A DNA stretch of 64,000 bases from a virus. Taxonomy: Duplodnaviria; Caudoviricetes. Under the pieces are notes generated by a model. The model was not told the DNA's origin. It made no database searches and was given only the letters and a program-made list of their open reading frames with translations. The translations under genes and the position numbers were made by a program. The stretch spans positions 8,776 to 72,775 of IMG/VR virus record IMGVR_UViG_3300021430_000864; one strand, given 5' to 3'. Below are positions 11,317-30,323 of this stretch, in pieces. Within the stretch, counting starts at the first letter, position 1. Each line of letters starts with the position of its first letter.

Positions 11317-11317
11317 T

Positions 11318-13308: not shown

Positions 13309-13314
13309 TTTTCA

Positions 13315-13322
13315 TATTTATA
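13315..13322 (+). promoter_or_regulatory. TATTTATA motif (putative late promoter element)
   Basis: Exact motif 10 nt before the ATG at 13333. Confidence 0.6.
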
Positions 13323-13332
13323 TTAAAAAAAC

Positions 13333-14253: not shown

Positions 14254-17200
14254 TGGCAAGAAGGAAAGTACCAAGTCAAGCGGCTAGTGGAGCAGAAACA
14301 TTTAATGATTTTTTAGTTGGTAGACAAATCACTGACGGAACATCCGCGCTTACCAACACTGTTTTTGCACTTGATAAAGTAATTCCACAAAAAGATTCAA
14401 AAACATTTAGAACAAATCCATTTTCTGAGTTTCTAACATTAGAAACTTTAAAAGAAAACGAAAGTGTTCAAACTACAACGACAACATCAAAAAAAAGAAG
14501 TGATGAAGTAAGATTTAGAGGTAATAAAAAATATGCCGATAAATCTTTATTTGGTTCATTAAAAAGTAGAATCTTAGTTTCAATAACAAGAATTATTGAA
14601 AAATTCCCTGCAGCACTTTCGGTTGTTGCAAATACACCTATTGGTAATTCACCATATAGTGCAAAAGATATTATTTATGACGATAGTTCAAATATCACCA
14701 CATTCTTTATAGAAAGAAGTAAAATTTTTAACCCATTCGACATATCTTTAATTGAACCGGTTTCATTAATAAAACCGGAAACGGAAAATGAGTTAAGAAA
14801 TTTTTATTCTTCATTCACAAAATATGTGTTAGAGGTTAATAAAACACCCTATCCTATTTTAGAATATAGTGAACCAAACACGTTAAATTTAATTCAACTT
14901 AGAGTATTTGGTAAACCATTTACCGGTTCAACCTATTCAGAAAATATTTTAATTAGACCAAATGACGGTTTAGTTGAAGAATTTTTCTTAGGATTAGATG
15001 ATTTAGAAGAATCGGTTTTAAACAGAGAAACCGACCCAATATATACATCAACATTTAAAGTACCAAAAGATAGTTTAGATGGTTCTAAAACATCGTTAGT
15101 GGATGTTAGTTATTCGTGGCCAATTGCTAGTGATGGTTACAACATACAAATCATAGGTATCGACTTTGATGACTATGTGACAAAATTAAAAGACATTGCG
15201 GATGAAATTGACAATTATAAATCTAATTTAACTGTTAGATTTTTAGCAGCACCTCAATTATTTGAATTTGACACCGAAGATAAAAGAGCTGAGAGTGTTT
15301 TCCAATTATATGGACAAAGTTTCGATAGTGTAAAAAAGTACATCGATAACATTGCTTATATGAGGAATGTTAGTTATGACAAAATTAATAACATTCCCGA
15401 TGTTTTATTAAAAAACTTAGCAGAAAACCTTGGTTTATCAACAATCAATTTATTTGACGAAAAGAGTTTAGATGAGGTACTATATTCAAGGATTGAATCG
15501 AACTACGGTGGTGTCCCAACAGGAACAAACTTAGTTGAGGCGGAATATGAATTCTACAGAAGATTATTAGTTAATTTAGCGTACATATATAAATCAAAAG
15601 GTACAAGAGCATCTATTGATTTCTTTTTAAGATTCTTGGGGGCACCTGAACCTTTAATTAAAATTGATGAATACATTTATCGTGTAACATCAATGCCGGC
15701 TAGTTTTAATTTACAACAAGACATCTATGATGTAATCCAAGGTAATAAGGTCTATTATTATGCAACTTTTGACCCTACAGGGTTCACATATACACAAGTT
15801 TCATATACTGCAACAACAACATACAATAGAGATGGTTATCCTGTTGATGAAATTACAGGACTACCAAGAAGAGCATACAACGAAACTGAGGGTATTTTCT
15901 ACCAAAAAGGTTCGGGTTGGTATGATATAACCTTAAATCATCGTTCACCATTGGTTTTAGATGATAGTAATTCGGATTTAACAGGTAGAACAAAAACAAT
16001 TATCACCAAAAACAAATCGTATAGTTATGGTGAGGAATATTTTGACCAATTTAGGACTTTACCAGGTTTAGATACGGGTTATAATCTTGTATTAGATATT
16101 GACAACAAAAAAGGTGGACAAATTGAAGATGATTCAATTTTAATCCTAAATAGAAAAAACATAGGTATCTATATTTCACCGGCAAAAGGTGTTGATTATG
16201 ATATTTTCAGACAATCAAGAGAACTTGAAATTTCTTTTGGTAGTAACACCCTATATCCACAAACAGGTAAAACTTTCGCAGAGTTCTTAAATACGTTTAT
16301 ACATACTCTTGTAACAAATTCAAATAAGATTCGTTACAAGAAAAATTATATACAACTTGAGGATGTTTATAGAGATTACCTTTCTCAAACAACAGGATTC
16401 ACCCCTTATCATCAAATAGATGTTACAGAATTCGTTAACAGAGTTTCACCATATTGGCCACAACTTGTGGAACAATTAGTTCCGTCAACAACACTTTGGA
16501 CAGGAGGTAATTTAATTGAGAATAATGTCTTTGGTAGACCAAAATATCAGTACAAATTCGATTGTCAACCACTCGAATTTATTGAATCATTATATCCTAA
16601 TTTTGAATCGGTAATTGAAGAAGACCTAGAAAACATTTTGGGGGAGGAAGTGAACTTTAGAGCACTATTAAATTTAACAGGAATGACTTATTATCCTGTT
16701 ATTGAAATTGATGGTGTTATTTATGGAGGTGCAGACTATTCAGGATTAACACCTTCAATGTATGTTGTGGTGAGTGGTACTTCAAACACATCAACAACCG
16801 CAAAATTGTTTGACCCACAACCATTTACAGGATGTACAAGTGGTGTTACAAGTGGTGACACAACAAACTTATCATTAATCTGTGATTATAAAAATTATTT
16901 ATCACCTGATTCTACTAAAATTAAAGAATTGTGGTTAAGTGCAATAAATGAATTAATTTCAGATATTACAATTACACGAAATAGTGCCGGCTATGAACCA
17001 TATGGACCATTTACAGGAACAACCGGTCAAACGTACTACTCGGAAACTATCCCATTAATAAAATATGGGACATTTACCGACGAAAATGGTGTTGAAAAAA
17101 TTAAATTTTCATCAGTAAAGTTAGGACCAAATGAATGTTCAGTATCCGATTATTTTGATTATCGTTTTGAGGTTGACTATGATATTACAAAAAGTAGTAA

Positions 17201-18491
17201 TGGTATAAGTGTACATGTTTATAGTGATAATCAGGCATATTGTGATACTCCTAGTGGTTGTACAATGATTACTGATTTATTTATTGAGGTAATCGGATAC
17301 AAAACAGGGGTACAACAGGGTTCTGATTGGTCATTCTATATTTACGCAAACTGTGTTAGTGGTAATAACCAAAATGCGGATGTTTATATTGAAAAAGTTA
17401 GTGATTGTATTTTTAAACTAACAGGTGTTAGTGAAAATGATATAATAGATTTTAATGTCATAGATGCAGCAAATAAAGAAGTTAAATTTAGAATTGAAGG
17501 TTTACAAGCAAAAGTTGAACACGACCCATGTCCCGAACCAAATGGTAAAAGTCACGTTGAATTATTCAATATTGCCTCATATCAAGGTAGTATTAGTAAC
17601 CCAATTTCAATAATATCAGGTGCAACGTATTGTGACAACTATACCGGTTACACAATACAACCTAAAGTTGAATATAAATCTAATTTTAATTATGGTTTAA
17701 AATGTGAATCAACTGTTTTAGTTGTTGATAGTGGTTTAACAATAGACAATACCACCACGTACCAAGATATCCAAAATTATATTTCAGGTGGAACTATAAC
17801 AGAAAAAAATGTTTGTGATTTAACAGTTGGTGAATTTGTTTTATCGGCAAATTACTTACCATGTACAAGTTATAGCCACCAACAAATTTTAGATGGTTCA
17901 TCCTCGGGTTATTCGTTCACGTTTGAATATGTAAAACTTGAAATAAGTGATATTGAGTGTTTAGGTTCGGTTAAGAAAAGTATTATTACGGGACAAACAT
18001 CAAGTGGTGATTATGAAATTTTTGAAGTATTACCAACAACACAACTTAGAGTTTATACAAATAAAATTGTTGAAAATTTTGGTGTACCTACGAACAGTAT
18101 TTATTTCTTTGATGATAGATTCCCTGAAGAATTACAAACAAAACCTTTAGATTTTATTGAACCATGCTGTGACCACCCAAAAGAACTATACAATCATGGT
18201 GATTATTTAATAAATCAATACGGTAATCTTATTGAGGTAATAGGTGTTGATTTAAATTATTGTGAATCAAATTTATATTTTAATTTAAATTTCGAATTAG
18301 ATGATAACCCAATTAATGAAGAATATGTTGTTGTTTTCAATGGAAACGATGAACACCAAATATTGATGAGACATAAGTATGAAACTCATCCTAATATGAG
18401 TTTTAATTTAGGTCAATATTATATTGATGAAAACTGGTGTCCTGAAGAACCAACCAATGAAGAACTATCTAACTCAGTTTTTGGTTGCTAA
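14253..18491 (+). CDS. Large baseplate/tail protein with a P2 gpI (phage tail protein I)-like domain
   Basis: IPDVLLKNLAENLG...EFYRRLLVNLAYIYKSKGTRASIDFFLRFLG resembles the gpI/gp7 wedge motif (KGT). The C-terminal half is beta-rich with Cys pairs. Confidence 0.65.
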   Translation: MARRKVPSQAASGAETFNDFLVGRQITDGTSALTNTVFALDKVIPQKDSKTFRTNPFSEFLTLETLKENESVQTTTTTSKKRSDEVRFRGNKKYADKSLFGSLKSRILVSITRIIEKFPAALSVVANTPIGNSPYSAKDIIYDDSSNITTFFIERSKIFNPFDISLIEPVSLIKPETENELRNFYSSFTKYVLEVNKTPYPILEYSEPNTLNLIQLRVFGKPFTGSTYSENILIRPNDGLVEEFFLGLDDLEESVLNRETDPIYTSTFKVPKDSLDGSKTSLVDVSYSWPIASDGYNIQIIGIDFDDYVTKLKDIADEIDNYKSNLTVRFLAAPQLFEFDTEDKRAESVFQLYGQSFDSVKKYIDNIAYMRNVSYDKINNIPDVLLKNLAENLGLSTINLFDEKSLDEVLYSRIESNYGGVPTGTNLVEAEYEFYRRLLVNLAYIYKSKGTRASIDFFLRFLGAPEPLIKIDEYIYRVTSMPASFNLQQDIYDVIQGNKVYYYATFDPTGFTYTQVSYTATTTYNRDGYPVDEITGLPRRAYNETEGIFYQKGSGWYDITLNHRSPLVLDDSNSDLTGRTKTIITKNKSYSYGEEYFDQFRTLPGLDTGYNLVLDIDNKKGGQIEDDSILILNRKNIGIYISPAKGVDYDIFRQSRELEISFGSNTLYPQTGKTFAEFLNTFIHTLVTNSNKIRYKKNYIQLEDVYRDYLSQTTGFTPYHQIDVTEFVNRVSPYWPQLVEQLVPSTTLWTGGNLIENNVFGRPKYQYKFDCQPLEFIESLYPNFESVIEEDLENILGEEVNFRALLNLTGMTYYPVIEIDGVIYGGADYSGLTPSMYVVVSGTSNTSTTAKLFDPQPFTGCTSGVTSGDTTNLSLICDYKNYLSPDSTKIKELWLSAINELISDITITRNSAGYEPYGPFTGTTGQTYYSETIPLIKYGTFTDENGVEKIKFSSVKLGPNECSVSDYFDYRFEVDYDITKSSNGISVHVYSDNQAYCDTPSGCTMITDLFIEVIGYKTGVQQGSDWSFYIYANCVSGNNQNADVYIEKVSDCIFKLTGVSENDIIDFNVIDAANKEVKFRIEGLQAKVEHDPCPEPNGKSHVELFNIASYQGSISNPISIISGATYCDNYTGYTIQPKVEYKSNFNYGLKCESTVLVVDSGLTIDNTTTYQDIQNYISGGTITEKNVCDLTVGEFVLSANYLPCTSYSHQQILDGSSSGYSFTFEYVKLEISDIECLGSVKKSIITGQTSSGDYEIFEVLPTTQLRVYTNKIVENFGVPTNSIYFFDDRFPEELQTKPLDFIEPCCDHPKELYNHGDYLINQYGNLIEVIGVDLNYCESNLYFNLNFELDDNPINEEYVVVFNGNDEHQILMRHKYETHPNMSFNLGQYYIDENWCPEEPTNEELSNSVFGC

Positions 18492-18515: not shown

Positions 18516-18546
18516 TTGATTTTATGACATTAACTGAGTATATTTT
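18516..18546 (+). promoter_or_regulatory. Putative early-type promoter upstream of the giant repeat gene
   Basis: TTGATT-N17-TATATT(TT). No TATTTATA motif in this leader. Confidence 0.45.
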
Positions 18547-18584
18547 TAAAATAAAAATACATATAGAGAACAGCATATTTTTAA

Positions 18585-21500
18585 ATGGCATTAATAAAGA
18601 TAAACACAGGTAATTTTGATGGTGAGACCGGAATTATAACATTTTATCCTTGCACGGGTGGTACAATAAGTTTAGGTACTGTCGTGATGCCATATTATTA
18701 TGAAACAAATTATTACTTAGGTACATATTCTGTTTTCTTTCCGGCATTAGATAAAACGTGTGTTGCTGAGATACCATGTCCGACACCTTCTTCAACCCCA
18801 ACTCCTACAACAACACCGACTGCCACTCCAACACCTTCAATTACTCCGACACTTACTCCGACACCTACAAGAACCCCTACAAGAACTCCGTCACCTACAA
18901 GAACTCCATCGGTAACGACAACACCATCCCCGTCAGTTACTCCATCAATCACACCTTCAGCATCACCTGAAGTAACACCTACTATTACCCCAACTGTAAC
19001 TCCAAGTACGAGTGTTACACCGACCGAGACTCCAACGGTAACACCGACTGTTACCCCATCGACATCGGTAACGCCAACTGTTACCCCAAGTGAGACACCA
19101 TCTTTAACGCCAACTGTTACCCCATCGACATCGGTAACCCCTACAGTCACACCAAGTGAAACACCAACTGTTACACCAACTGTGACATCTACAGTCACAC
19201 CGACCATAACACCAAGTGAGAGTGTCACTCCTACGGTTACTCCGAGTGAAACACCAACAGTTACACCCACAATTACTCCTAGTGTGTCAGTTACCCCAAC
19301 ATTAACACCTACTGAAACACCAACAAATACACCAACTGTAACCCCAAGCACTAGTGTGACCCCTACAGTCACACCAAGTGAAACGCCAACTATTACTCCT
19401 ACTATTACTCCATCAACATCGATAACTCCAACGGTTACACCGACTGAGACTCCTACTATAACACCAACTGTAACGCCTTCAACAAGTGTTACGCCGACCG
19501 TTACTGCTACTGTCACACCAACCATAACACCAACTATCACACCTAGTACTTCTATAACACCAACGGTAACCCCAAGTGAGACACCCGCTATTACACCGAG
19601 TTTAACTCCAACTACATCTGTAACACCAACAATCACCCCTACAGTTACCGAAACGGTAACACCAACAGTTACACCATCAACAAGTGTTACACCGACCGTT
19701 ACTGCAACAGTAACACCTACTGTTACACCTTCAACTAGTGTAACCCCGACCGTTACATCAACCGTTACCCCAACTATAACACCGACAATCACTCCAAGCA
19801 CATCAGTAACACCAACTGTTACTGCGACTGTTAGTGCAACAGTAACACCAACCATTACACCCACAACGAGTATTACCCCTACGGTAACCCCAACCGAGAC
19901 ACCAACCATTACTCCTACTATTACTCCATCAACATCGATAACTCCAACGGTTACACCGACTGAGACCCCCACTATAACGCCGACAATCACTCCATCAACA
20001 AGTGTTACCCCTACGGTAACACCAACTGTTACTTCAACTGTAACACCAACCGTGACTCCAAGCACATCAGTAACACCAACTGTTACACCCACTGAAACAC
20101 CGACAATCACACCAACTGTTACTCCAAGTAGTTCTGTTACACCGACAATCACACCAACTGTTACTTCAACTGTAACACCGACAATCACTCCAAGCACATC
20201 AGTAACACCCACAACTTCAGTAACTCCAACGGTGACATCGACTATTACCCCTACAGTAACACCTAGTGTTTCTGTTACCCCAACTATTACACCTACTATC
20301 ACACCCACGGTAACACCATCCACTTCTGTTACACCAAGTACCTCAGTTACCCCAAGTTTCACACCGACTGTAACCGCGACCGTTACTCCTACGGTAACAC
20401 CAACACCCGCACCATCATGTGATATTGATTATACAAGATTACCGTCACCAACTCCAACCACAACACCAACACCATCTTTAACACCTACAGTGACACCAAC
20501 AATTACTGCCACTATAACACCAACCATTACACCAAGTACATCAATTACTCCTACCGTAACCTCAACCATCACTCCAACTGTAACACCAAGTACTTCTGTA
20601 ACACCAACGATTACCACTACAGTTACCCCTACGGTAACACCATCAGTATCGGTAACTCCAACTATTACCCCAACCGTAACCGCAACAGTAACACCTACAG
20701 TAACCCCAAGTACTTCAATTACACCAACATTGACATCAACTGTTACTCCGACAGTAACACCAACTATAACACCATCAACAAGTGTTACACCAAGTGTAAC
20801 TCCAACAATTAGTGCAACAGTTACACCAACCATCACACCTACAACGAGTATTACTCCAACAGTAACCCCAACAATTAGTGCAACAGTTACACCAACTGTA
20901 ACTCCAAGCACTTCTATTACCCCTACAGTAACTCCAACATTGACGGCAACTGTAACACCCACTGTTACCCCATCAGTATCAGTAACTCCAACAGTAACTC
21001 CGAGTACATCAGTAACACCAACTATAACATCTACTGTAACTGCGACAATAACACCTACTGTCACTCCAAGTGTATCAGTAACACCTACTATTACTCCAAC
21101 AAGAACAGCATCGGTTACGCCAACTATAACTCCAACTATAACACCATCAACAAGTGTTACCCCAACCATTACACCAACAGTAACTCCAACTATAACTCCA
21201 ACTATAACACCAAGTACTTCTGTAACACCTACAGTAACCCCAACAGTAACACCGTCAAGTTCGGTGACACCTACCATAACACCTACTATTAGTGCTACTA
21301 TAACACCTACAGTAACACCTTCAACAAGTGTCACCCCATCAACTTCAGTTACTGCAACAGTTACACCAACAATTACTCCAACAGTAACACCTAGTGTATC
21401 TGTTACACCAACTATTACAACAACTCAAACGCCAACAGTAACTCCTTCAACTTCAGTTACCCCAACTATAACCCCTACGATAACACCAACTATCACCCCA

Positions 21501-24500
21501 AGTACTTCAGTTACCCCAACGGTGACTGCAACTATTACTCCCACAATCACACCAACCGTTACCCCGAGTAGTTCGGTAACACCAACTATAACGCCAACAA
21601 TTACACCAACAGTAACCTCAACAGTAACACCGACAGTTACTCCATCGGTATCAGTAACACCAACAATTACTCCTACGGTTAGTGCTACAGTTACACCAAC
21701 GATAACCCCAAGCACAAGTGTGACCCCTTCAACGAGTGTAACACCAACAGTAACCCCTACCATTACACCAACGGTAACCCCTACGGTAACCCCAAGTACA
21801 TCTATAACTCCAACTATAACACCAACTATAACCCCTACTCAAACACCATCAACATCGGTAACTCCAACTATTACCGCAACAATTACACCCACAATTACCC
21901 CAACTATAACACCATCAACATCGGTAACTCCCACTATAACACCAACATTAACAGCAACTGTTACACCTACGGTAACCCCAACAGTAACTCCAAGTACTTC
22001 GGTTACACCATCAACATCAGTAACACCTTCAACAAGTGTTACCCCAACCATAACCCCAACAGTTACACCAACCGTAACTGCAACTGTGACTCCAACAAGA
22101 ACACCAAGTACTACAGTAACCCCAACAGTAACTCCAAGTACGAGTGTTACACCATCTATAACTCCAACAATTACACCAACAATCACCGCAACAGTAACAC
22201 CTACAGTAACACCATCAACTAGTGTAACACCATCAACATCAGTTACACCAACTGTTACTGCAACCATTACTCCAACCATTACTCCAACAGTAACACCATC
22301 AACATCGGTTACTCCGACTGTTACTCCAACTATTACTCCTACGATAACACCTACAGTAACACCATCAACAAGTATTACCCCAACCATTACACCAACAATT
22401 ACTCCTACTGTAACATCAACTGTAACTCCCTCAACTTCTGTTACACCAACTATTACCCCTACAGTAACACCTACGGTTACACCGTCAACATCTATTACAC
22501 CAACCATCACACCGACAAGAACGGCATCAGTAACACCTACTATAACCCCTACGGTCACACCAAGTACATCGGTAACTCCATCAACAAGTGTTACTCCAAG
22601 TACTTCTATTACACCAACAGTTACACCTACAAGAACAGCATCAGTAACTCCAACAATTACACCAACGGTTACACCTTCAACTTCAGTAACTCCAACAATT
22701 ACACCTACAATTACTCCTACGGTAACCCCAAGTACTTCGGTAACACCGACAGTGACACCAACGGTGACTCCGACAGTTACATCTAGTACATCAGTTACTC
22801 CTACAATAACACCTACAAGAACCGCAACAGTTACACCTAGTACATCGGTAACACCTACAATAACACCAACAATTACTTCAACTATAACGCCTACAGTGAC
22901 CCCAACGGTGACTCCATCGACTAGTGTTACACCATCAACAAGTATTACCCCAACTGTAACACCATCAGTTACTCCAACAATAACCCCAACAATAACCCCA
23001 ACAAGAACCCCAAGTACATCGGTAACACCGACAGTAACTCCAAGTACATCGGTAACACCTACAAGAACAGCATCAGTAACACCTACTATAACCCCTACGG
23101 TCACACCAAGTACATCAGTTACACCAACAATTACACCTACCGTTACACCATCAACATCAGTAACTCCTACTATCACTCCAACGGTTACGCCAACCATTAC
23201 CCCTACAAGAACACCAAGTACATCGGTAACTCCTAGTACATCTATAACTCCCACTGTTACGCCAACCATTACCCCTACAAGAACACCAAGTACATCAGTT
23301 ACCCCATCAGTTACCTCATCGGTTACACCTACGGTTACACCATCAACTAGTGTTACACCAACTATTACTCCAACAAGAACACCAAGTGTATCCGTTACAC
23401 CAACCATTACACCTACCATAACACCTACTGTAACCCCAACTATTACACCATCAACAAGTGTTACACCATCAACAAGTATAACACCTACTATTACTCCAAC
23501 AAGAACGGCATCAGTAACTCCGACGGTTACGCCAAGTACGTCAGTAACTCCATCAACTAGTATTACTCCAACCATTACACCAACCATCACACCAACAAGA
23601 ACCGCATCGTTAACACCAACAGTTACTCCAAGTACATCTATTACACCGAGTACATCAGTAACTCCATCAACTAGCGTTACTCCAACTATTACACCAAGTG
23701 TTACACCAACCATTACCCCTACAAGAACACCTAGTACATCGGTTACACCAAGTGTGACCCCAACCATCACACCAACAAGAACACCATCAACAAGTGTTAC
23801 ACCAAGTGTAACTCCAACAAGAACAGCATCAGTTACTCCAAGTACTTCTATTACACCATCAATTACACCAAGTAGAACACCATCTATCACCCCAACAGTT
23901 ACCCCAAGTACTTCTATTACACCATCAATTACACCAAGTAGAACACCATCTATCACCCCAACAATCACTCCAACTATCACACCTTCAACAAGTATAACAC
24001 CTACTATTACTCCAACAAGAACGGCATCAGTAACTCCGACGATTACACCAACGGTTACTCCATCAACTTCAATAACACCGAGTGTTACACCATCTGTCAC
24101 ACCAAGTAGAACACCATCTATCACCCCAACAGTTACACCTTCAACAAGTGTAACACCATCCATCACACCAACAGTAACCCCTAGTACATCAGTAACACCT
24201 TCGATTACACCATCTAGAACGCCAAGTATAACACCTACGGTTACACCATCAACATCAATTACTCCAACAGTAACACCTTCAACAAGTGTAACACCTTCGA
24301 TTACTCCATCGAGAACACCAACCATTACCCCTACAAGAACACCATCAACTTCAATAACACCAAGTGTTACTCCATCGAGAACACCATCAATCACACCAAC
24401 GGTTACACCAAGTACGTCAATAACACCATCTATTACCCCATCTATTACCCCAACCATCACACCTAGCACATCAGTTACACCAAGTGTAACCCCATCAAGA

Positions 24501-26798
24501 ACACCATCTATAACACCAACCATAACACCAACACGTTCAGTAACACCATCAACAAGTATAACACCCACAATCACACCTACACGTTCAGTAACACCAACAT
24601 CATCTATTACCCCAACCATAACACCAACACGTTCAGTAACCCCAACACGTTCAGTAACACCCACACGTTCAGTAACTCCGACACCAACAAGAACACCATC
24701 AATAACACCTACACGTTCAGTAACACCAACGATTACACCATCACCAAGTCCACAGTATATAAACGCAATATTCCAATCATGTTGTCCGGGTGACACCACA
24801 CTTTATTACGGTAGAGTTCCAATTGACGCAATGTCGGGTGACATATTTTATTTACCGGATGCTATGATATGTGGTACATTTATTGTTACGGGAGGTCCCG
24901 GTGGTGTGATTGCTCAACAATATTTTGGTACATGTGAAGATTGTATTGCAGAATCTTTAGTATTTTGTCCTTCACCTACACCAACCCCAACATCAACTGT
25001 TACTCGTACACCAACAAGAACACCATCTATCACCCCAACTATTACACCAACACGTTCCGTAACACCTACACGTTCAGTAACACCAACATCATCTATTACC
25101 CCAACCATAACACCTACACGTTCAGTAACTCCGACACCATCTATCACACCCACAATAACCCCAACACGTTCTGTAACACCAACACCATCGGTAACTGCGA
25201 CTCGTTCAGTAACTCCTACACGTTCAGTAACCCCAACACGTTCAGTAACACCTACACGTTCAGTAACTCCGACACCAACAAGAACACCATCAATAACACC
25301 TTCACCATCAATGGCGATTGGTTATGTTTATTTATTACCATGTTGTGATGGTGGTGGTTTCACGGCAAATTCACAATTTTTAAGTGTTACCACTTCATTG
25401 GTGTGGTTACAAGCAACAAATAGACAAGGATATACAATTGTAATAAATGGGTGTTGTTATGTGATTGAGGGTTATTCACCAACATTTAGTGCACCAAATT
25501 TCACAGGTGTTGATGGGTATTTTGATTCTTCATCATTTGTTGCAGAATCATGTCAACAATGTATTGCGGTTAACCCATGTCAATCACATCAATACCAATT
25601 GGAACCATGTGCCGCTTGTTGTGGAATATCTGGACCCCAAACAATTCAGTTTGGTTGTGAAATCGATGACCCAAATACTTTAGTGGGTAGTATAATTTCA
25701 ATAAATGGTTGTTGTTATGTTGTACAAACATATCTTGGACCGGGAGCACCGAATGCGGGTACTATTGCATATGGACCGTTTGACTTATGTAACGATTGTC
25801 AGGTATATTACCCATGTCCGACACCAACACCAACCCCAACACGTTCAGTAACACCAACACCATCAAGAACACCGTCAGTTACACCATCAAGAACACCATC
25901 TATCACCCCAACTAGGACAATAACACCAACTAGGACAATAACACCAACTCGTTCTATAACACCTACATCATCTATTACCCCAACAAGAACTCCTTCACCA
26001 ACTCCTTCACCACTCCCTTGTTATTGTCACACAATTATAATTGACCAAGATGACATTGACCCAGTTTTTGGGGGACCGATTATTGAAGTAATTGAATGTG
26101 ATGGTCAACCAAATAATGAACAATTTAACACTGCAGGAACATATGCTCGTTGTTACATAGAAGTTCAAAATTTCTACGCATTTGATTCATTAGGTCTTAC
26201 TTATGAACCTACATTATCATCATGGACAAACACATTTACACCATGTACAGGTCACGGAGATTGTGTTGTACCTACACCTACTCCAACACCTACTCCAACA
26301 CCAACACCGTCAGTTACACCGGCTTGTAATTGTATAGATTATTCACTTAGTGGATTAGAGGAAGCGACATATATAGAGTACATTGATTGTAACGGAAACT
26401 CTCAAGTTATAAACGACCCAAGTTTTTGGACACTTAGTAGCTCTTCAATCAACTTATGTGCGTGTGAGGATTCAATACAAACAGATACACGTGATATTAG
26501 AATAGGTTCTAATGGTTCGTGTCCTGAATGTACATGTTATGAAATATTTATTGACCCACAAGACATAGCAATTGCGGATGATAATACGGTTTACTTCTAC
26601 TACCAATGTTGTGATGGTTCATGGTACATACAACCATACTATTCACCGGGAATGCAACCAAGTCTTTGTATTACTCGACCAATACATTTCGGTATAGTTT
26701 TACAAGGAACTTTAGTGACAGCATTTAACTCATATTCCGGAGCGGGTTCACCATGTTGTGGAGGACTTAGAAACTGTAACTGTTTTGAAACATGCTAA
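18585..26798 (+). CDS. Giant mucin-like Thr/Pro/Ser-rich protein (2737 aa) with C-terminal Cys-rich modules; putative virion fibre
   Basis: Intact 8.2 kb ORF. Short N-terminal beta domain, ~1990 aa of TPTV/TPTI/TPSTSV repeats, then Cys-rich modules separated by PT linkers. Located in the virion gene block. Confidence 0.8.
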   Translation: MALIKINTGNFDGETGIITFYPCTGGTISLGTVVMPYYYETNYYLGTYSVFFPALDKTCVAEIPCPTPSSTPTPTTTPTATPTPSITPTLTPTPTRTPTRTPSPTRTPSVTTTPSPSVTPSITPSASPEVTPTITPTVTPSTSVTPTETPTVTPTVTPSTSVTPTVTPSETPSLTPTVTPSTSVTPTVTPSETPTVTPTVTSTVTPTITPSESVTPTVTPSETPTVTPTITPSVSVTPTLTPTETPTNTPTVTPSTSVTPTVTPSETPTITPTITPSTSITPTVTPTETPTITPTVTPSTSVTPTVTATVTPTITPTITPSTSITPTVTPSETPAITPSLTPTTSVTPTITPTVTETVTPTVTPSTSVTPTVTATVTPTVTPSTSVTPTVTSTVTPTITPTITPSTSVTPTVTATVSATVTPTITPTTSITPTVTPTETPTITPTITPSTSITPTVTPTETPTITPTITPSTSVTPTVTPTVTSTVTPTVTPSTSVTPTVTPTETPTITPTVTPSSSVTPTITPTVTSTVTPTITPSTSVTPTTSVTPTVTSTITPTVTPSVSVTPTITPTITPTVTPSTSVTPSTSVTPSFTPTVTATVTPTVTPTPAPSCDIDYTRLPSPTPTTTPTPSLTPTVTPTITATITPTITPSTSITPTVTSTITPTVTPSTSVTPTITTTVTPTVTPSVSVTPTITPTVTATVTPTVTPSTSITPTLTSTVTPTVTPTITPSTSVTPSVTPTISATVTPTITPTTSITPTVTPTISATVTPTVTPSTSITPTVTPTLTATVTPTVTPSVSVTPTVTPSTSVTPTITSTVTATITPTVTPSVSVTPTITPTRTASVTPTITPTITPSTSVTPTITPTVTPTITPTITPSTSVTPTVTPTVTPSSSVTPTITPTISATITPTVTPSTSVTPSTSVTATVTPTITPTVTPSVSVTPTITTTQTPTVTPSTSVTPTITPTITPTITPSTSVTPTVTATITPTITPTVTPSSSVTPTITPTITPTVTSTVTPTVTPSVSVTPTITPTVSATVTPTITPSTSVTPSTSVTPTVTPTITPTVTPTVTPSTSITPTITPTITPTQTPSTSVTPTITATITPTITPTITPSTSVTPTITPTLTATVTPTVTPTVTPSTSVTPSTSVTPSTSVTPTITPTVTPTVTATVTPTRTPSTTVTPTVTPSTSVTPSITPTITPTITATVTPTVTPSTSVTPSTSVTPTVTATITPTITPTVTPSTSVTPTVTPTITPTITPTVTPSTSITPTITPTITPTVTSTVTPSTSVTPTITPTVTPTVTPSTSITPTITPTRTASVTPTITPTVTPSTSVTPSTSVTPSTSITPTVTPTRTASVTPTITPTVTPSTSVTPTITPTITPTVTPSTSVTPTVTPTVTPTVTSSTSVTPTITPTRTATVTPSTSVTPTITPTITSTITPTVTPTVTPSTSVTPSTSITPTVTPSVTPTITPTITPTRTPSTSVTPTVTPSTSVTPTRTASVTPTITPTVTPSTSVTPTITPTVTPSTSVTPTITPTVTPTITPTRTPSTSVTPSTSITPTVTPTITPTRTPSTSVTPSVTSSVTPTVTPSTSVTPTITPTRTPSVSVTPTITPTITPTVTPTITPSTSVTPSTSITPTITPTRTASVTPTVTPSTSVTPSTSITPTITPTITPTRTASLTPTVTPSTSITPSTSVTPSTSVTPTITPSVTPTITPTRTPSTSVTPSVTPTITPTRTPSTSVTPSVTPTRTASVTPSTSITPSITPSRTPSITPTVTPSTSITPSITPSRTPSITPTITPTITPSTSITPTITPTRTASVTPTITPTVTPSTSITPSVTPSVTPSRTPSITPTVTPSTSVTPSITPTVTPSTSVTPSITPSRTPSITPTVTPSTSITPTVTPSTSVTPSITPSRTPTITPTRTPSTSITPSVTPSRTPSITPTVTPSTSITPSITPSITPTITPSTSVTPSVTPSRTPSITPTITPTRSVTPSTSITPTITPTRSVTPTSSITPTITPTRSVTPTRSVTPTRSVTPTPTRTPSITPTRSVTPTITPSPSPQYINAIFQSCCPGDTTLYYGRVPIDAMSGDIFYLPDAMICGTFIVTGGPGGVIAQQYFGTCEDCIAESLVFCPSPTPTPTSTVTRTPTRTPSITPTITPTRSVTPTRSVTPTSSITPTITPTRSVTPTPSITPTITPTRSVTPTPSVTATRSVTPTRSVTPTRSVTPTRSVTPTPTRTPSITPSPSMAIGYVYLLPCCDGGGFTANSQFLSVTTSLVWLQATNRQGYTIVINGCCYVIEGYSPTFSAPNFTGVDGYFDSSSFVAESCQQCIAVNPCQSHQYQLEPCAACCGISGPQTIQFGCEIDDPNTLVGSIISINGCCYVVQTYLGPGAPNAGTIAYGPFDLCNDCQVYYPCPTPTPTPTRSVTPTPSRTPSVTPSRTPSITPTRTITPTRTITPTRSITPTSSITPTRTPSPTPSPLPCYCHTIIIDQDDIDPVFGGPIIEVIECDGQPNNEQFNTAGTYARCYIEVQNFYAFDSLGLTYEPTLSSWTNTFTPCTGHGDCVVPTPTPTPTPTPTPSVTPACNCIDYSLSGLEEATYIEYIDCNGNSQVINDPSFWTLSSSSINLCACEDSIQTDTRDIRIGSNGSCPECTCYEIFIDPQDIAIADDNTVYFYYQCCDGSWYIQPYYSPGMQPSLCITRPIHFGIVLQGTLVTAFNSYSGAGSPCCGGLRNCNCFETC
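18780..24752 (+). repeat. ~6 kb coding low-complexity repeat tract (TP[TS][VI], TPSTSV, TPTRSV units)
   Basis: Continuous ACN/CCN/GTN/TCN codon array with mostly synonymous variation between units. One short break (APSCDIDYTRL) near 20405-20445. Confidence 0.95.
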
Positions 26799-26836: not shown

Positions 26837-28246
26837 ATGCCAACACCAACTCCAACACCTTCAGTTAGTCCGGGATGTAGTAATTACTTATTCAAACTAC
26901 AAGACGTGTATTATGCAACACAAGCTGGTCCCTTTAATTTATCAGGAACAACCGATTTAGGTTCAACTATATTAATAGAATCTGGTGTTACATTAAGTCA
27001 ACTACAATCAGGATTTACCGCGACGATATGTACAACAATAACCGGAGGTACAATACAAAGTATTGGGAGTTGTGACACATTATTCAATTACGTAATATTC
27101 ATACCATCACCAACACCTACCCCATCTATTACGCCAACCCCAACACCATCAGTTTCAATAACACCTACAATCACCCCAACTATAACACCATCAAGCTCAA
27201 GTGTTCAACAAGTTTCAGTAACACCAACACCAACACGAACTGTTACACCAACCCCAACGCGCTCAGTGACCCCAACACCATCTAGTAGTTTACCACCTGT
27301 AGGTGAATATTATTACCGACCAAACAGTTGGGCCCCACCATATATTAATCAAGGTAGTGGGGATAATTACTTAGTAACATCGAATAGTTTATCGACAGAG
27401 ATTAGTACGTCTGTTATTGATTACACAACAACCGATTGGTCATTTTCATTATGGGGTTACCCTCAATTTGATACCACCGTACCACCTTTTGACAATTATG
27501 GTAAAACCTATGTTTCAACCTTAGTTTCAATTTGTGTACCGGGAGCAACACCTCCTTTCCCTGACACAACATTAACCAATCTTACAATTGCAGTTGAATA
27601 TACTTCAGGGGCAACGTTGGTTAACGATTTAGTTGTTTATATGTTGGATGATTTGAATAGAAGTGCGAAATGGACATGGGCGATTAATTCTGACCCAAAT
27701 GCAACCATAACGGGTGTTAGTCCTTTAGAAATGTGGGATAATATTAATTTCGGTAGTACTTTAAATTCGGATAGATTCTCAAATATTGTGATTACACATG
27801 ATAATTCTTTAGTTATTAGTTCACCATCAGGTAGTACAATGGCATATTGGAATGGAGAATTACTTGAATTAAAATCGTACACCGAAAGTGGTCCTGTATA
27901 TCCTCATATTAGTAATTACAATTCATTAAATGATTCTAAATTCTATATAGCACAAGGTAGTTTAATGGGTAATAATGGTGCTTTTCATCCATTGAGCACA
28001 AATATTGATAACCCAATATATTTCCCATCAATAATTTTATCTCCATCCGAATCACTTACAATTTATAATGGTGGTGTTGTACAAACATCAATAACCACAG
28101 GTTTGGGTCAAGCATATATTTGGAATTTTGATAACTTATCGGCATCTCATTTGGAGTGTTTAGACCAAACAAATGTAACAGTTCCACAATTTCTGTTAGA
28201 ACAAAAAAGTGGTGGTGGGGGAATACAAACCTATATTCTTGTATAA
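26837..28246 (+). CDS. PT-linker protein with a C-terminal LamG/concanavalin-A-like domain
   Basis: PT tract, then WSFSLW...NIVITHD...AYWNGEL...IDNPIYF...LSPSESLTIYNGG, which follows the LamG-like pattern. Confidence 0.55.
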   Translation: MPTPTPTPSVSPGCSNYLFKLQDVYYATQAGPFNLSGTTDLGSTILIESGVTLSQLQSGFTATICTTITGGTIQSIGSCDTLFNYVIFIPSPTPTPSITPTPTPSVSITPTITPTITPSSSSVQQVSVTPTPTRTVTPTPTRSVTPTPSSSLPPVGEYYYRPNSWAPPYINQGSGDNYLVTSNSLSTEISTSVIDYTTTDWSFSLWGYPQFDTTVPPFDNYGKTYVSTLVSICVPGATPPFPDTTLTNLTIAVEYTSGATLVNDLVVYMLDDLNRSAKWTWAINSDPNATITGVSPLEMWDNINFGSTLNSDRFSNIVITHDNSLVISSPSGSTMAYWNGELLELKSYTESGPVYPHISNYNSLNDSKFYIAQGSLMGNNGAFHPLSTNIDNPIYFPSIILSPSESLTIYNGGVVQTSITTGLGQAYIWNFDNLSASHLECLDQTNVTVPQFLLEQKSGGGGIQTYILV

Positions 28247-28257
28247 CAATTGAATAG

Positions 28258-28265
28258 TATTTATA
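28258..28265 (+). promoter_or_regulatory. TATTTATA motif (putative late promoter element)
   Basis: Exact motif 11 nt before the ATG at 28277. Confidence 0.6.
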
Positions 28266-28276
28266 AGTAAAAAACA

Positions 28277-29914
28277 ATGGGATTAAACATAAAATTATAT
28301 AATATTATTACCGATGGTAGTTATAGTTTAAGATATAAAACCGGTGATTATCCGTATCCTGAAACTGTGGATTCAACATTTACATTTTATGGTAGTGGGC
28401 TAACCGATTCAAGCATTGTGATTACAGGTTTGACATTTGATACTCAATATTGGGTAAAAATGACCGACGAGACTACCGGAAGATATATAATTAAAAATAT
28501 ATATACAAACGACAGCAAGGCGTTTCCATGTTATGATACAATATGTTTTGATGTTGAGGTTTTATGTTTATCTCAAACCCCAACTCCAACACCATCATCA
28601 ATTCCCGTACAAACTCAAACTCCAACCCCAACACCTACTCTAACTCCAACACCATCATATATTTGTAGTGATAGTGTTAGAAATACTTTAAGTGCAACAA
28701 ATGGATATAGTGCGGTGGGTAGACAAGGTATGGTTTACTCTTCAGTAACCAATAAAGCATATGTTTTAGATTCAGATAGTGTTACCGTAAAATCTTTTGT
28801 TCCAAATTCAACAACATTAACTACTGAATTCACATGGTCAGGAACTTCATTATTATTGGGTTATAACCCAACTGAAAATAAATTATACAGTTGGCGTTCA
28901 ACAATTAGTCCAATTAACATTTTAATCAGAGATTTAGACACTAACACATCAACTTCAGTTTCAATTAGTGGAATAACAGGACAGGGGTTAGGTAAAATTT
29001 TATTCAATTCAACATTAAATAAGATTTATGCATTCTCACAAAGTGTAAATTTCACAACCGCACAGATTAGTGTTATTGATGGTACAACTAATACATTTAC
29101 AAACCAATACACGGGTATAACGTTAACAAATCCAAATGCTGTTGTACATAACCCAAACAATAATAAGTTATACATAGCACAAGGTGGTAGAATCTATTCT
29201 TGTTCAGGTAATGACCTTACTTTAGATGTTGCAACATTACCGGTAACATCGGGTTTAATTGCATTAGATGAGATAAATAATATAATTTATATGGTTGATT
29301 CAACAACTGTTTATAAAATAGATGCGTCAACTAATACCACAATTTCAAACACATCTATAACAGGTAGTTGGGATTCCTCATCTTTAAGGTCAATGACTTA
29401 TAACCCTGACAATGGAAAACTTTACATTAGTAGATATGTAACAGGTTCAGACGGATTTTTAGGTTCTTTAAACCCAACATCCGGTGCGTTTACAGAAATT
29501 ATTGGTGATGGTATATCAGAACCACTTTACGCACCAACAAATACAATTTATGGTATTAACGGCGATGCACTGTACGAAATATGTGGTTCAGAATCAATAC
29601 TACCTCAAACAACTCCTACCCCAACACCAACAAAAACCCCCACCCCAACACCATCAATTTCATATAAAACATGGATAATACAAGAATGTACATCACCATG
29701 TGTTGGGGGACAATGTGGATGTGGTGAACAAATATCAACAACAGTTTATACGGCACCAAATGTTACTGATTTAACAGACCCATCTACCGTTATTTGTATC
29801 AATACAACATTAACATTGGCATTTACAGGATTTTTCGCACAAAGTGGTGAGATATATGATGTGAACTCAGGTACACCAACACAATATTGTACGATTGGTC
29901 TTGACCCATGTTAA
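28277..29914 (+). CDS. PT-linker protein with a YncE/YVTN-like beta-propeller
   Basis: Seven ~40-aa blade repeats (NKAYV, NKLYS, NKIYA, NKLYI, NIIYM, GKLYI, NTIYG) flanked by PT linkers. FN3-like N-terminus (ITGLTFDTQYWVKM) and a Cys-rich C-terminal module. Confidence 0.65.
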   Translation: MGLNIKLYNIITDGSYSLRYKTGDYPYPETVDSTFTFYGSGLTDSSIVITGLTFDTQYWVKMTDETTGRYIIKNIYTNDSKAFPCYDTICFDVEVLCLSQTPTPTPSSIPVQTQTPTPTPTLTPTPSYICSDSVRNTLSATNGYSAVGRQGMVYSSVTNKAYVLDSDSVTVKSFVPNSTTLTTEFTWSGTSLLLGYNPTENKLYSWRSTISPINILIRDLDTNTSTSVSISGITGQGLGKILFNSTLNKIYAFSQSVNFTTAQISVIDGTTNTFTNQYTGITLTNPNAVVHNPNNNKLYIAQGGRIYSCSGNDLTLDVATLPVTSGLIALDEINNIIYMVDSTTVYKIDASTNTTISNTSITGSWDSSSLRSMTYNPDNGKLYISRYVTGSDGFLGSLNPTSGAFTEIIGDGISEPLYAPTNTIYGINGDALYEICGSESILPQTTPTPTPTKTPTPTPSISYKTWIIQECTSPCVGGQCGCGEQISTTVYTAPNVTDLTDPSTVICINTTLTLAFTGFFAQSGEIYDVNSGTPTQYCTIGLDPC

Positions 29915-29943
29915 AAACGGTTTACAATAAACAACATTTTCCA

Positions 29944-29951
29944 TATTTATG
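29944..29951 (+). promoter_or_regulatory. TATTTATG variant of the putative late motif
   Basis: 4 nt before the ATG at 29956. Confidence 0.45.
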
Positions 29952-29955
29952 ATAT

Positions 29956-30306
29956 ATGCCATCAATAAATCAGTATCAAATAACAATATCAAACTTTTCA
30001 GGTAACACACCGTGTGAAGGTTATTATATCTACACAGGTCTTACCCATAATATTGATGATGCGGATTATATAAATGGTTCAGCCACATTAATACCAATAT
30101 CCACAGGATATACATTTAATGTGAATGTATTAGACACATATCCACAAATATTTTTATTTGTTGAACATTGTGATGGACACATAAACCCCATACCGGGTTC
30201 AACACCGAAATTACAAGGTGGATATCAAATGGCGTTACTCGATTTAAGATGTGACGATTGTTTTGTTCCTTGTACGTTTGGTGTGAATGTTATAAAATTA
30301 ATTTAA
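29956..30306 (+). CDS. Small putative virion protein (116 aa)
   Basis: Sits between fibre-like genes. Its sequence style (YTGLT, VEHCDG) is shared with a module of the 1303-aa protein. Confidence 0.5.
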   Translation: MPSINQYQITISNFSGNTPCEGYYIYTGLTHNIDDADYINGSATLIPISTGYTFNVNVLDTYPQIFLFVEHCDGHINPIPGSTPKLQGGYQMALLDLRCDDCFVPCTFGVNVIKLI

Positions 30307-30323
30307 GTAATAGATAATAGTAA

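What the first reader, a model, noticed from the sequence alone, without database searches (positions are those of the whole stretch)
18780..24752. ~1990-residue, almost uninterrupted Thr/Pro/Ser/Val/Ile stalk in one phage ORF
Seen: a 6 kb tract built almost entirely from T, P, S, V and I with a T-P every 4-6 residues. The frame is intact and has one 11-aa break (APSCDIDYTRL). This is far longer than ordinary PT linkers. Inference: as an extended chain it could span several hundred nm, longer than a typical tail. It would hold the Cys-rich C-terminal modules far from an N-terminal anchor domain. Keeping 6 kb of repeat in a phage genome implies strong selection on length.
Basis: partly seen in the sequence, partly recalled or inferred. 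Interest (0 to 1): 0.75.

Follow-up and report, generated by a model that had tools for sequence, protein, structure and literature searches.

The report
Giant Thr-Pro thread in phage fibre protein
An uncultured freshwater jumbo phage really encodes a 2,737-residue protein that is mostly one 1,991-residue thread with Thr or Ser at every second position, joining a small conserved head domain to cysteine-rich end modules; it is probably a very long, possibly sugar-coated, tether in the tail-fibre gene block, a design I found no description of for phages.

Summary
Window 18780-24752 is a 1,991-aa tract (T 41, P 20, S 14, V 12, I 8 %) inside one intact ORF (18585-26798, 2,737 aa).

The pattern is stricter than the finding says. 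Every second residue is Thr/Ser, and all Pro, Val and Ile sit in the other phase, with no register slip.

The tract is not an assembly artefact or a dead gene:
- The longest exact DNA repeat is 60 nt.
- Synonymous sites between identical peptide repeats are almost randomised.
- In a relative, 13 independent assemblies agree over the 10.2 kb compared.

Orthologues in about 55 related loci all carry the tract. Where complete it is about 2,500-4,750 aa, so this copy is the shortest. Selection favours the pattern and "very long", not a fixed length.

The gene follows gp25/gp6-like baseplate genes. Its N-domain is conserved and its Cys-rich end diverges fast. Three longer relatives (two lineages) encode tandem GT60-type polypeptide GlcNAc-transferase homologues.

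Best reading: an over-grown PT linker acting as a flexible, probably O-glycosylated tether. Virion location, sugars and ligand are unproven.

The scan found this family before on other DNA, and those notes agree.

The parts
18516..18552 (+). Sigma70-like promoter candidates upstream of the giant gene (TTGATT-N17-TATATT and an overlapping ATGACA-N17-TAAAAT)
   Evidence: The equivalent position in relatives reads TTGACA-N17-TATATT and is conserved. Neighbouring structural genes instead carry TATTTAT(A) next to the start codon. No expression data.
18585..26798 (+). Giant ORF, 2,737 aa, about 279 kDa, ending in a double stop TAATAA
18585..18779 (+). N-terminal 65-aa domain: a six-strand beta-sandwich with 3 invariant Cys; inferred virion-attachment module
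   Evidence: 75-95% identical in tract-bearing orthologues and about 50% in tract-less distant homologues. AF2 pLDDT 82. No significant fold match. No signal peptide or LPXTG.
18780..20408 (+). Tract segment A, 543 aa, strict (T/S)-X repeat holding all the Glu residues (net charge -11)
20409..20441 (+). Break motif APSCDIDYTRL, with the only Cys in the tract; a conserved short motif
   Evidence: TPAPSCDIDYT[RM][LI]PSPTP is present in 5 of 6 lineages, at variable positions 612-1255. Function unknown.
20442..24752 (+). Tract segment B, 1,437 aa, strict (T/S)-X repeat with Arg increasing towards the C-end (net charge +31)
24753..24953 (+). Type-A Cys-rich module 1
   Evidence: Same CC...C[YW]...C..C pattern as the modules at 25278-25808 and in ORF 30324.
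24954..25277 (+). PT/Arg linker 2 (108 aa)
25278..25808 (+). Type-A Cys-rich modules 2 and 3 (177 aa, 15 Cys)
   Evidence: AF2 pLDDT 84.5 on 11 sequences. Best PDB matches Z 4.0. Only 9 homologues among 1.84 billion representative proteins.
25809..25979 (+). PT/Arg linker 3 (57 aa)
25980..26255 (+). Type-B Cys module (C.C...DC...C), paralogous to a module in ORF 30324
   Evidence: No Pfam hit.
26289..26795 (+). C-terminal 169-aa Cys-rich region (16 Cys), inferred ligand-binding tip
   Evidence: Only 31-60% identical in orthologues.
3079..5365 (+). gp25-like and gp6-like baseplate wedge genes that open the structural block
   Evidence: phrog_261 4.5e-19. phrog_6 9.4e-23.
5420..18491 (+). Six large unannotated genes between gp6 and the giant gene, syntenic in all relatives; presumed baseplate or fibre proteins
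   Evidence: 65-95% aa identity and same order in relatives. No PHROG, Pfam or PDB match.
26837..34235 (+). Four downstream genes; three (26837, 28277, 30324) have shorter PT linkers, and Cys-rich modules are clear in ORF 30324 (26837 and 28277 carry only scattered Cys); ORF 29956 (116 aa) was not translated

Best explanation
The ORF is a genuine, translated structural-block gene of an uncultured freshwater T4-like jumbo phage, probably with a Bacteroidota host. It belongs to a phage-specific family of 'beads on PT linkers' proteins. In this family a conserved 65-aa beta-sandwich N-domain is followed by Pro/Thr linkers and small Cys-rich modules. In one lineage the first linker has been amplified by repeat duplication from about 45 aa to 2,000-4,750 aa. 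The product is a strictly alternating (Thr/Ser)-X copolymer, with X = Pro about 41% and otherwise mostly Val/Ile. About 60% of residues are beta-branched and 20% are Pro. The tract is almost uncharged and never has more than 11 residues between prolines. Such a chain cannot form helices or long beta strands, so it should behave as an extended, non-globular thread. I infer that the N-domain fixes the protein to the baseplate or tail region. I infer that the thread acts as a flexible tether and that the fast-evolving Cys-rich modules bind a host or particle ligand. That would enlarge the capture radius or let the tip reach through capsule or slime. I further infer that the Thr/Ser face is O-glycosylated in the cytoplasm by phage enzymes, which would keep this uncharged Val/Ile-rich chain soluble, stiff and protease-resistant. 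Shown: the gene, the pattern, its conservation and turnover, the gene context, and the glycosyltransferase genes in relatives. Inferred: virion location, tether function, glycosylation and ligand.
For: Real coding sequence under selection:
- The frame is intact for 8.2 kb, with in-frame homologous domains at both ends.
- Identical 10-residue peptides within the tract use the same codon only 42% of the time, against 38% expected for random synonymous choice.
- Only 22% of 18-mers recur inside the tract, although 82% of peptide 8-mers do.

Not an artefact:
- The longest exact DNA repeat is 60 nt.
- In the relative G002 lineage, 13 independent metagenome assemblies give an identical first 10.2 kb of the gene.
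- Two of those assemblies were read to the end and both give the same 5,472-aa ORF.

Family-wide feature:
- 31 viral-contig and 25 metagenome loci carry the N-domain (the two lists overlap); 52 continue straight into the tract and 4 are the tract-less distant form.
- The register never slips in 4,749 aa of G002.
- Repeat units are lineage-specific: TITP/TVTP here, TNTVTP in G002, SVTP/TSSVTP in G001/G004.

Origin from a linker: distant homologues L036 and L037 have the same N-domain followed by a linker of about 45 aa and ordinary modules.

Structural context:
- gp25-like and gp6-like baseplate genes lie upstream, followed by six syntenic large genes and then the giant gene.
- Three of the four downstream genes share the PT-linker architecture, and ORF 30324 also shares the Cys-rich modules.

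Conserved head, variable tip:
- N-domain identity is 76-95%.
- The upstream 1,412-aa protein is 67-88% identical.
- The C-terminal modules are only 31-60% identical.

Glycosylation candidates:
- A sugar and GT operon lies at 57399-63857.
- Its two-domain GT is conserved in G002, G003 and G007.
- Two tandem PF11397 (GT60-type) genes, scoring 244 and 164 bits, occur in G002, and also in G004 and G009.
- GT60 enzymes start mucin-type O-GlcNAc on Thr in protists (PMC8724618, PMC3769586).

Analogy: O-glycans extend and protect PT linkers (PMC3490864), and the SRR2 stalks of serine-rich-repeat adhesins project a binding region from the cell (PMC7661464).
Against: - There is no proteomic, EM or expression evidence that the protein is made or sits on the virion.
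- The N-domain and the Cys modules have no recognisable fold relatives, so neither 'anchor' nor 'adhesin' is supported by homology.
- The GT60 genes were found only in relatives. The window's own record is a 72.8-kb fragment (about 20% complete) and lacks them.
- The GTs in the window could just as well modify DNA or host glycans.
- A gene with a sigma70-like promoter, rather than the neighbours' late motif, may not be a typical late virion gene.
- A 2.4-fold length range argues against a precise spacer role.
Confidence: 0.55

Rival explanations
1. Protective or colloidal coat rather than a reach device. The threads, glycosylated or not, form a brush or 'glycocalyx' around the tail or particle. 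The brush would limit aggregation, protease attack and grazing, or stick the virion non-specifically to polysaccharide particles where Bacteroidota live. The Cys modules would play a minor role.
For: At least four neighbouring genes carry PT tracts. A large sugar and GT gene set is present. The length is not fixed, as expected for a brush. Mycobacteriophage virion glycans are reported to shield particles (cited in PMC12619734; the original paper was not read here).
Against: The architecture of a conserved head and rapidly diverging modular tips is the usual signature of specific recognition. One gene with a single N-domain gives few copies per virion unless it binds a repeated site.
Confidence: 0.2
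2. Ordered multi-chain fibre. The strict two-residue period encodes a regular structure in which several chains pack their Pro/Val/Ile faces together, for example a parallel extended-chain bundle cross-linked at the conserved Cys of the break motif. That would give a stiff filament of up to about 0.6 micrometre.
For: The register is perfect over 1,991-4,749 aa. The pattern alternates polar and non-polar residues. A single conserved Cys sits in an invariant motif. Many phage fibres are trimers (general knowledge).
Against: Pro occurs every 2-12 residues, which removes backbone H-bond donors and limits strands to at most 11 residues. No known fibre fold has this composition. The odd-phase residues change freely between lineages (V/I, N, S), which is hard to reconcile with a packed core. 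Even-length repeat units alone give the parity.
Confidence: 0.1
3. Not a virion component. The protein acts inside the infected cell or is released at lysis. It could be a scaffold, a matrix or slime-like material, or a decoy that binds host defence or surface factors.
For: The promoter is conserved and sigma70-like, unlike the late-type motif of the neighbouring genes. There is no homology to any known virion protein.
Against: The gene sits inside a co-oriented, syntenic baseplate and fibre block. There is no signal peptide or membrane segment. The paralogous PT/Cys genes next to it do carry the late motif.
Confidence: 0.1
4. Assembly artefact or decaying gene. The tract length is an artefact of repeat assembly, or the ORF is no longer functional.
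For: Many related contigs end inside the tract. The relative G001 has a run of 20 N, one register slip and a frameshift near the tract end.
Against: The longest exact repeat is 60 nt. Thirteen independent assemblies of a relative are identical over the first 10.2 kb of the gene. Frames are intact in at least 5 lineages. Synonymous sites are randomised while the peptide is kept. Collapse, meaning the true length is longer, remains possible.
Confidence: 0.03

Closest known systems
Pro/Thr ('PT box') inter-domain linkers of bacterial cellulases and other modular secreted proteins
   Same: Same chemistry and logic: Pro plus Thr/Ser low-complexity spacers between small folded modules, an alternating X-Pro / Thr-X pattern, an extended conformation, and O-glycans that extend and protect (PMC3490864). 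Tract-less homologues of this very protein have linkers of ordinary size.
   Different: Length. Cellulase linkers are 30-42 aa on average and at most 75 aa (PMC3490864), against 1,991 aa here and up to 4,749 aa in relatives. This protein is encoded by a phage, has no signal peptide, and half of the non-hydroxyl positions are Val/Ile rather than Pro.
Serine-rich repeat adhesins of Gram-positive bacteria (Fap1, GspB, PsrP, SraP)
   Same: A very long hydroxy-amino-acid tract, cytoplasmic O-GlcNAc glycosylation of Ser/Thr, and a stalk that projects a binding region, with length thought to be adapted to the capsule (PMC7661464). The (Ser)-X dipeptide periodicity of SRR regions is my own recollection, not checked in that paper.
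   Different: No signal peptide, no LPXTG, and no SecA2/Y2 context. The tract is Thr/Pro-rich rather than Ser/Ala-rich. The binding modules are at the far C-end. The candidate transferases in relatives are GT60-type, not GtfA/B. This is an analogue, not a member.
Mucins and protist mucin-like coats (PTS domains; T. cruzi Thr-rich mucins started by GT60 pp-alpha-GlcNAc-transferase)
   Same: Thr/Pro/Ser tandem repeats flanked by Cys-rich domains. Relatives of this phage encode two PF11397/GT60-type enzymes, the family that adds alpha-GlcNAc to Thr of mucin-like repeats (PMC8724618, PMC3769586).
   Different: No VWD, CysD or cystine-knot domains. The setting is prokaryotic, viral and cytoplasmic. 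No glycan has been measured. The GT60 genes were not seen on the window's own fragment.
Phage tail fibres and receptor-binding proteins, and mycobacteriophage virion O-glycosylation (Freeman et al. 2023, as cited in PMC12619734)
   Same: Position after the baseplate wedge genes. A conserved N-terminal part and a variable C-terminal part. A phage-encoded GT alongside a Ser/Thr-rich acceptor on a structural protein.
   Different: Known fibres are folded trimeric beta-structures of about 50-150 nm built from far fewer residues. Nothing like a low-complexity shaft of 2,000-4,750 residues was found in 50,697 deposited phage genomes by homology to this protein's ends.

Membership tests
PT-type inter-domain linker | Pro + Thr/Ser low-complexity segment lying between independently folded modules | tested here: met
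   Composition and segmentation. The flanking domains fold with pLDDT 82 and 84.5.
PT-type inter-domain linker | Length of tens of residues (cellulase sets: mean 30-42, maximum 75) | tested here: not met
   1,991 aa. The longest comparable run in 120 other large PT proteins was 290 aa. Reference lengths from PMC3490864.
Serine-rich repeat adhesins (SRRP) | Long hydroxy-amino-acid dipeptide repeat region | tested here: met
   Thr/Ser at every second residue for 1,991 aa.
Serine-rich repeat adhesins (SRRP) | Extended N-terminal signal sequence for the accessory Sec system, and a C-terminal LPXTG cell-wall anchor | tested here: not met
   The N-terminus starts MALIKINTGNFDGETG with no hydrophobic core. 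No LPXTG.
Serine-rich repeat adhesins (SRRP) | GtfA/GtfB O-GlcNAc transferase pair | not tested
   Only Pfam scans of the window's GT operon and PF11397/PF23452 searches were run.
Mucins (PTS domain proteins) | Cys-rich VWD / CysD / cystine-knot flanking domains | tested here: not met
   No Pfam family at E<=1 for any Cys module. No structural match.
Mucin-type O-glycosylation started by GT60 pp-alpha-GlcNAc-transferase | A GT60 (PF11397) enzyme encoded together with the Thr-rich acceptor | tested here: inconclusive
   Two tandem PF11397 genes occur in the relatives G002, G004 and G009. None is on the window's own 72.8-kb fragment or on four other fragments. The equivalent region lies about 140-160 kb from the giant gene in G002.
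Mucin-type O-glycosylation started by GT60 pp-alpha-GlcNAc-transferase | Glycan actually attached to Thr/Ser of the tract | not testable with these tools
   Needs mass spectrometry or lectin and chemical assays.
Phage tail fibre / receptor-binding protein | Gene located in the baseplate and tail-fibre cassette | tested here: met
   gp25-like and gp6-like genes upstream, with a syntenic block.
Phage tail fibre / receptor-binding protein | Conserved N-terminal attachment part and divergent C-terminal recognition part | tested here: met
   N-domain 76-95% against C-terminal modules 31-60% identity in the same genome pairs.
Phage tail fibre / receptor-binding protein | Presence in the virion and a folded (usually trimeric) shaft | not testable with these tools
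   No proteomics or EM. The composition argues against a folded shaft.
HPAT/SERGT-like (PF23452) phage peptide O-glycosyltransferase system | PF23452 enzyme encoded in the genome | tested here: inconclusive
   No match in G000-G004, but the control genomes were silent too.

The most novel reading that the evidence does not exclude
These phages carry sugar-coated protein threads whose contour length (0.6 micrometre here, about 1.5 micrometre in relatives) exceeds the whole virion several-fold. The thread works as a long-range 'fishing line' whose length is tuned, lineage by lineage, to the thickness of the host's capsule or slime layer or to particle capture. It would be made by a previously undescribed cytoplasmic, virus-encoded mucin-type O-glycosylation pathway (GT60 pair plus sugar operon) in a bacterial virus.
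Probability: 0.25. Interest if true: 0.85.

Novelty: new variant of a known kind. Interest (0 to 1): 0.66.

Why it matters
If the protein is on the virion, it would be an unfamiliar solution to host finding. Instead of a folded fibre, the phage would use a disordered, probably glycosylated polymer of 2,000-4,750 residues. In relatives that is 16 kb of coding DNA, about 5% of the genome.

It gives a natural series of lengths (about 2,000 to 4,750 aa) on an otherwise conserved gene block. That series could be used to test how tether length affects adsorption.

It points to phage-encoded mucin-type protein glycosylation in aquatic Bacteroidota-type phages.

It offers a clean model of how a strictly periodic low-complexity sequence is maintained while its DNA is scrambled. 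The family also explains why these jumbo-phage assemblies often break at this locus.

Tried and rejected
- Assembly inflation was rejected.
- Minus-strand ORFs of 112-986 aa across the tract are composition by-products. Only the + frame joins homologous domains.
- Read-through into ORF 26837, which oddly begins with a PT linker, was rejected. The giant gene ends in TAATAA, and the next gene is in another frame behind its own TATTTATA motif.
- Pfam, PHROGs, PDB sequence search, Foldseek (PDB, BFVD), VIA-align and the ESM Atlas gave no informative match for the N-domain, the Cys modules or the six upstream genes.
- No DNA or protein match was found in 50,697 deposited phage genomes, except a 28% gp6 match.
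- PF23452 (HPAT-type GT) was not found, but the control was silent.
- The window has no tRNA genes. The relative G002 has 23, including Thr-UGU, Pro-UGG, Ser-UGA and Val-UAC. This is a general set and not specific evidence.
- Literature searches found no description of such a phage protein.
- The 'moraphage' paper (PMC12619734) describes freshwater jumbo phages of Bacteroidota with core glycosyltransferases. It does not mention this gene, and I could not verify membership.
- The idea that the break motif is a vestige of a lost type-B module (compare the start of the C-terminal region, ACNCIDYSL) rests on about 6 of 10 matching residues. It is only a suggestion.
Full report
**1. Observation**

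The window holds one + strand ORF, 18585-26798, of 2,737 aa. Residues 66-2056 (nt 18780-24752, 1,991 aa) are T 40.9, P 20.4, S 14.3, V 11.8 and I 7.7 %, with traces of R, A and E. The single interruption, APSCDIDYTRL, is at aa 609-619. The finding's coordinates and description are exact.

The tract is more ordered than reported. It is a strict dipeptide repeat. One phase is Thr/Ser in 46-50 of every 50 positions. All 405 Pro and all 387 Val/Ile lie in the other phase. The register never slips, not even across the break. T-P spacings are always even, and all inter-proline gaps are odd and at most 11 residues. About 60% of residues are beta-branched, and net charge is about +19 over 1,991 residues.

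**2. Is it real?**

Open frames alone prove little here, because the antisense strand is also open for up to 986 codons. Five other lines of evidence settle the question.

- The + frame joins a folded N-domain to folded C-terminal modules, and both have homologues elsewhere.
- DNA repeats are degenerate. TRF reports 60-80% matches, and the longest exact repeat in the gene is 60 nt. That is too short to mislead a short-read assembler into inflating the tract.
- 82% of peptide 8-mers recur in the tract, but only 22% of DNA 18-mers do.
- Identical 10-residue peptides share codons 42% of the time, against 38% expected if synonymous codons were drawn at random. Synonymous sites are therefore nearly saturated while the peptide is kept, which is the signature of a translated sequence under purifying selection.
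- In a relative, 13 metagenome assemblies from several projects give a byte-identical first 10.2 kb of the gene. Two of them were read to the end and both give the same 5,472-aa ORF.

Caveats remain. Many related contigs end inside the tract. One relative (G001) has an N run, one register slip and a frameshift. A collapsed, shorter-than-true assembly of the window's allele cannot be excluded without reads.

**3. Genome and context**

The window is part of a 72.8-kb IMG/VR record judged about 20% complete. A 288-kb relative is 92% complete, so this is a jumbo phage of roughly 300 kb.

Recognisable genes include the following:
- ribonucleotide reductase;
- gp25-like (3079-3531) and gp6-like (3533-5365) baseplate wedge proteins;
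- primase, SbcCD, prohead protease and a sigma factor;
- a tail-tube-like protein.

The giant gene follows gp25, gp6 and six large unannotated genes. That order is kept at 65-95% identity in relatives. Three of the four genes after it (26837, 28277, 30324) have PT linkers of ordinary length, and ORF 30324 also repeats the Cys-rich modules.

GC is 32%, and only 5 of 48 genes have a Shine-Dalgarno motif. The nearest cultured gp6 homologues include Flavobacterium phages, at 28% identity. This fits a Bacteroidota host, but that is an inference. The recently described freshwater 'moraphages' (PMC12619734) may be the same or a neighbouring lineage; I could not test this.

**4. Relatives**

The 65-aa N-domain finds 31 viral-contig loci and 25 metagenome loci; the two lists overlap. 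In 52 of these loci (48 at 75% N-domain identity or more, plus 4 whose match stops at residue 63) the ORF continues straight into the same kind of tract. The other 4 are the tract-less distant form. Orthologues compare as follows.

| Genome | ORF length | Tract length |
|---|---|---|
| this window | 2,737 aa | 1,991 aa |
| G004 | 2,940 aa | about 2,530 aa |
| G005 | 4,989 aa | about 4,480 aa |
| G002 and G003 | 5,472 aa | 4,749 aa, no register slip |
| G001 | about 5,280 aa, with a frameshift | about 4,600 aa |
| G006 | at least 4,673 aa, runs off the contig | not complete |

The window's tract is the shortest and has the least internal DNA redundancy.

Repeat units are lineage-specific. They are TITP/TVTP/STSVTP here, TNTVTP/TNTP in G002, and SVTP/SITP/TSSVTP in G001 and G004. 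Tracts share few 18-mers between genomes but many within a genome. The array therefore turns over by duplication and loss inside each lineage.

Four things stay constant across lineages:
- Thr/Ser at every second residue;
- Pro at about 40% of the other positions;
- a charge gradient, with Glu only in the N-proximal 10-20% and Arg/Lys rising towards the C-end;
- in 5 of 6 lineages, the motif TPAPSCDIDYT[RM][LI]PSPTP, at a variable distance (612-1255) from the start.

Two distant homologues (L036, L037; N-domain about 50% identical) have a first linker of about 45 aa followed by ordinary modules. The giant tract is therefore an over-grown first linker.

**5. The ends**

The N-domain is predicted as a six-strand beta-sandwich (pLDDT 82). 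It has 24 invariant columns, including 3 Cys. It has no significant fold neighbour, and no signal peptide or membrane segment.

The paired type-A Cys modules are predicted confidently (pLDDT 84.5). They match nothing in the PDB (best Z 4.0). They have only 9 homologues among 1.84 billion representative proteins.

The folded modules are acidic and the linkers next to them are basic.

Between the same genome pairs, the N-domain is 76-95% identical and the upstream 1,412-aa protein is 67-88% identical. The C-terminal modules are only 31-60% identical. A conserved head with a fast-evolving tip is the usual pattern of phage attachment proteins. It does not prove the role.

**6. Physical expectations (calculated, not measured)**

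The contour length is 617-677 nm here and about 1.5-1.6 micrometres for 4,749 aa. As a worm-like chain with a persistence length of 1-10 nm, the rms end-to-end distance is about 36-112 nm here and 55-174 nm in the long forms. 'Several hundred nm' is therefore a maximum reach, not the resting size.

An almost uncharged chain with 20% Val/Ile in an alternating polar/non-polar pattern would be prone to beta-aggregation. Two features would counter this. Proline occurs at least every 12 residues. Glycosylation of the hydroxyl face, if it happens, would also help.

**7. Glycosylation**

The window carries a minus-strand operon at 57399-63857. It encodes:
- a two-domain GT and a GT2;
- a DegT aminotransferase and WbqC;
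- a hexapeptide acyltransferase and a methyltransferase;
- a PhyH dioxygenase and a GH130-like protein.

Homologues of the two-domain GT occur in G002, G003 and G007.

Following a lead from earlier notes of this scan, I searched for PF11397. To my knowledge this Pfam family corresponds to CAZy GT60. Two tandem genes, scoring 244 and 164 bits, are present in G002, and also in G004 and G009. These are the three relatives' records long enough to reach that region. The shorter fragments, including the window's own record, lack them.

GT60 enzymes add alpha-GlcNAc to Thr of mucin-like repeats in Dictyostelium and T. cruzi (PMC8724618, PMC3769586). This makes O-glycosylation of the tract plausible. 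No target is shown.

**8. Comparison and novelty**

Functionally the tract is a PT linker, or a mucin- or SRRP-like stalk. It fails the membership tests of those families on length, export signals, anchors and flanking domains. I therefore file it as a new variant of a known kind: an extreme, phage-encoded stalk.

I found no paper describing it and no counterpart in deposited phage genomes. Earlier notes of this scan had already flagged orthologues in other genomes (2,940 aa and 5,331 aa) and reached similar readings. My measurements agree with them.

**9. Verdict**

- The best reading is a flexible, probably glycosylated tether in the tail-fibre block (confidence 0.55).
- The rivals are a protective brush, an ordered multi-chain fibre, a non-virion role, and, nearly excluded, an artefact.

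Noticed in passing
window 18516-18552; L011/L025/L027 about 50-80 nt upstream of the giant gene's ATG: The giant gene has a conserved sigma70-like promoter (TTGACA-N17-TATATT in relatives, TTGATT-N17-TATATT here). Neighbouring structural genes instead have TATTTAT(A) a few bases before the ATG (3079, 5420, 13333, 26837, 28277, 29956, 34286, 46820, 50448). This suggests separate, perhaps earlier, expression of the very long gene.
   Followed up: partly
window 20409-20441 and equivalents in L038, L040, L041, G001: The 11-aa 'break' is part of a nearly invariant motif, TPAPSCDIDYT[RM][LI]PSPTP. It holds the only Cys of the tract, and its distance from the N-terminus varies (612-1255). It is absent in G004. 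It may be a cross-link, docking or cleavage site, or a vestige of a lost type-B module (compare ACNCIDYSL at aa 2569).
   Followed up: partly
L094:63-2592 (G002:C1:265.4-267.5 kb); also G004:C1:158.6-160.8 kb and G009:C1:122.4-124.6 kb: Two tandem PF11397 (GT60-type polypeptide GlcNAc-transferase-like) genes occur in relatives of this phage. The family is otherwise known from protists.
   Followed up: partly
window 57399-63857 (-): An eight-gene sugar operon encodes a two-domain GT, DegT, WbqC, a hexapeptide acyltransferase, a GH130-like protein, a PhyH 2OG-dioxygenase, a GT2 and a methyltransferase. A 2OG-dioxygenase in a genome with a Pro-rich giant protein raises the untested idea of proline hydroxylation.
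   Followed up: no
window, all 48 gene starts: Only 5 of 48 genes have a Shine-Dalgarno-like motif. The leaders are A/T-rich, as in Bacteroidota and their phages.
   Followed up: partly
L045 and L043 (G002:C1:570-5580): The near-complete relative carries a cluster of 23-24 tRNA genes covering 19 amino acids. The window itself has none.
   Followed up: partly
L004 / G001:C1, about 29.0-29.2 kb, plus an N run about 720 nt into the gene: The relative G001's orthologue has 20 N, one single-residue register slip (aa 2747) and a +1 frameshift at a near-duplicate unit close to the tract end. This is either assembly error or a real split gene.
   Followed up: partly
L002:16710-17927 (G001): A separate 405-aa gene in the relative carries a type-A module pair. 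It is closer to the window's modules (67% identity) than the relative's own orthologous copy is (55%), which suggests module exchange between fibre genes.
   Followed up: no
window ORF modules (aa 2057-2737): The folded Cys modules are acidic (net -6 to -14), while the linkers beside them and tract segment B are basic (Arg). Tract segment A is acidic. This charge polarity is conserved across lineages.
   Followed up: partly
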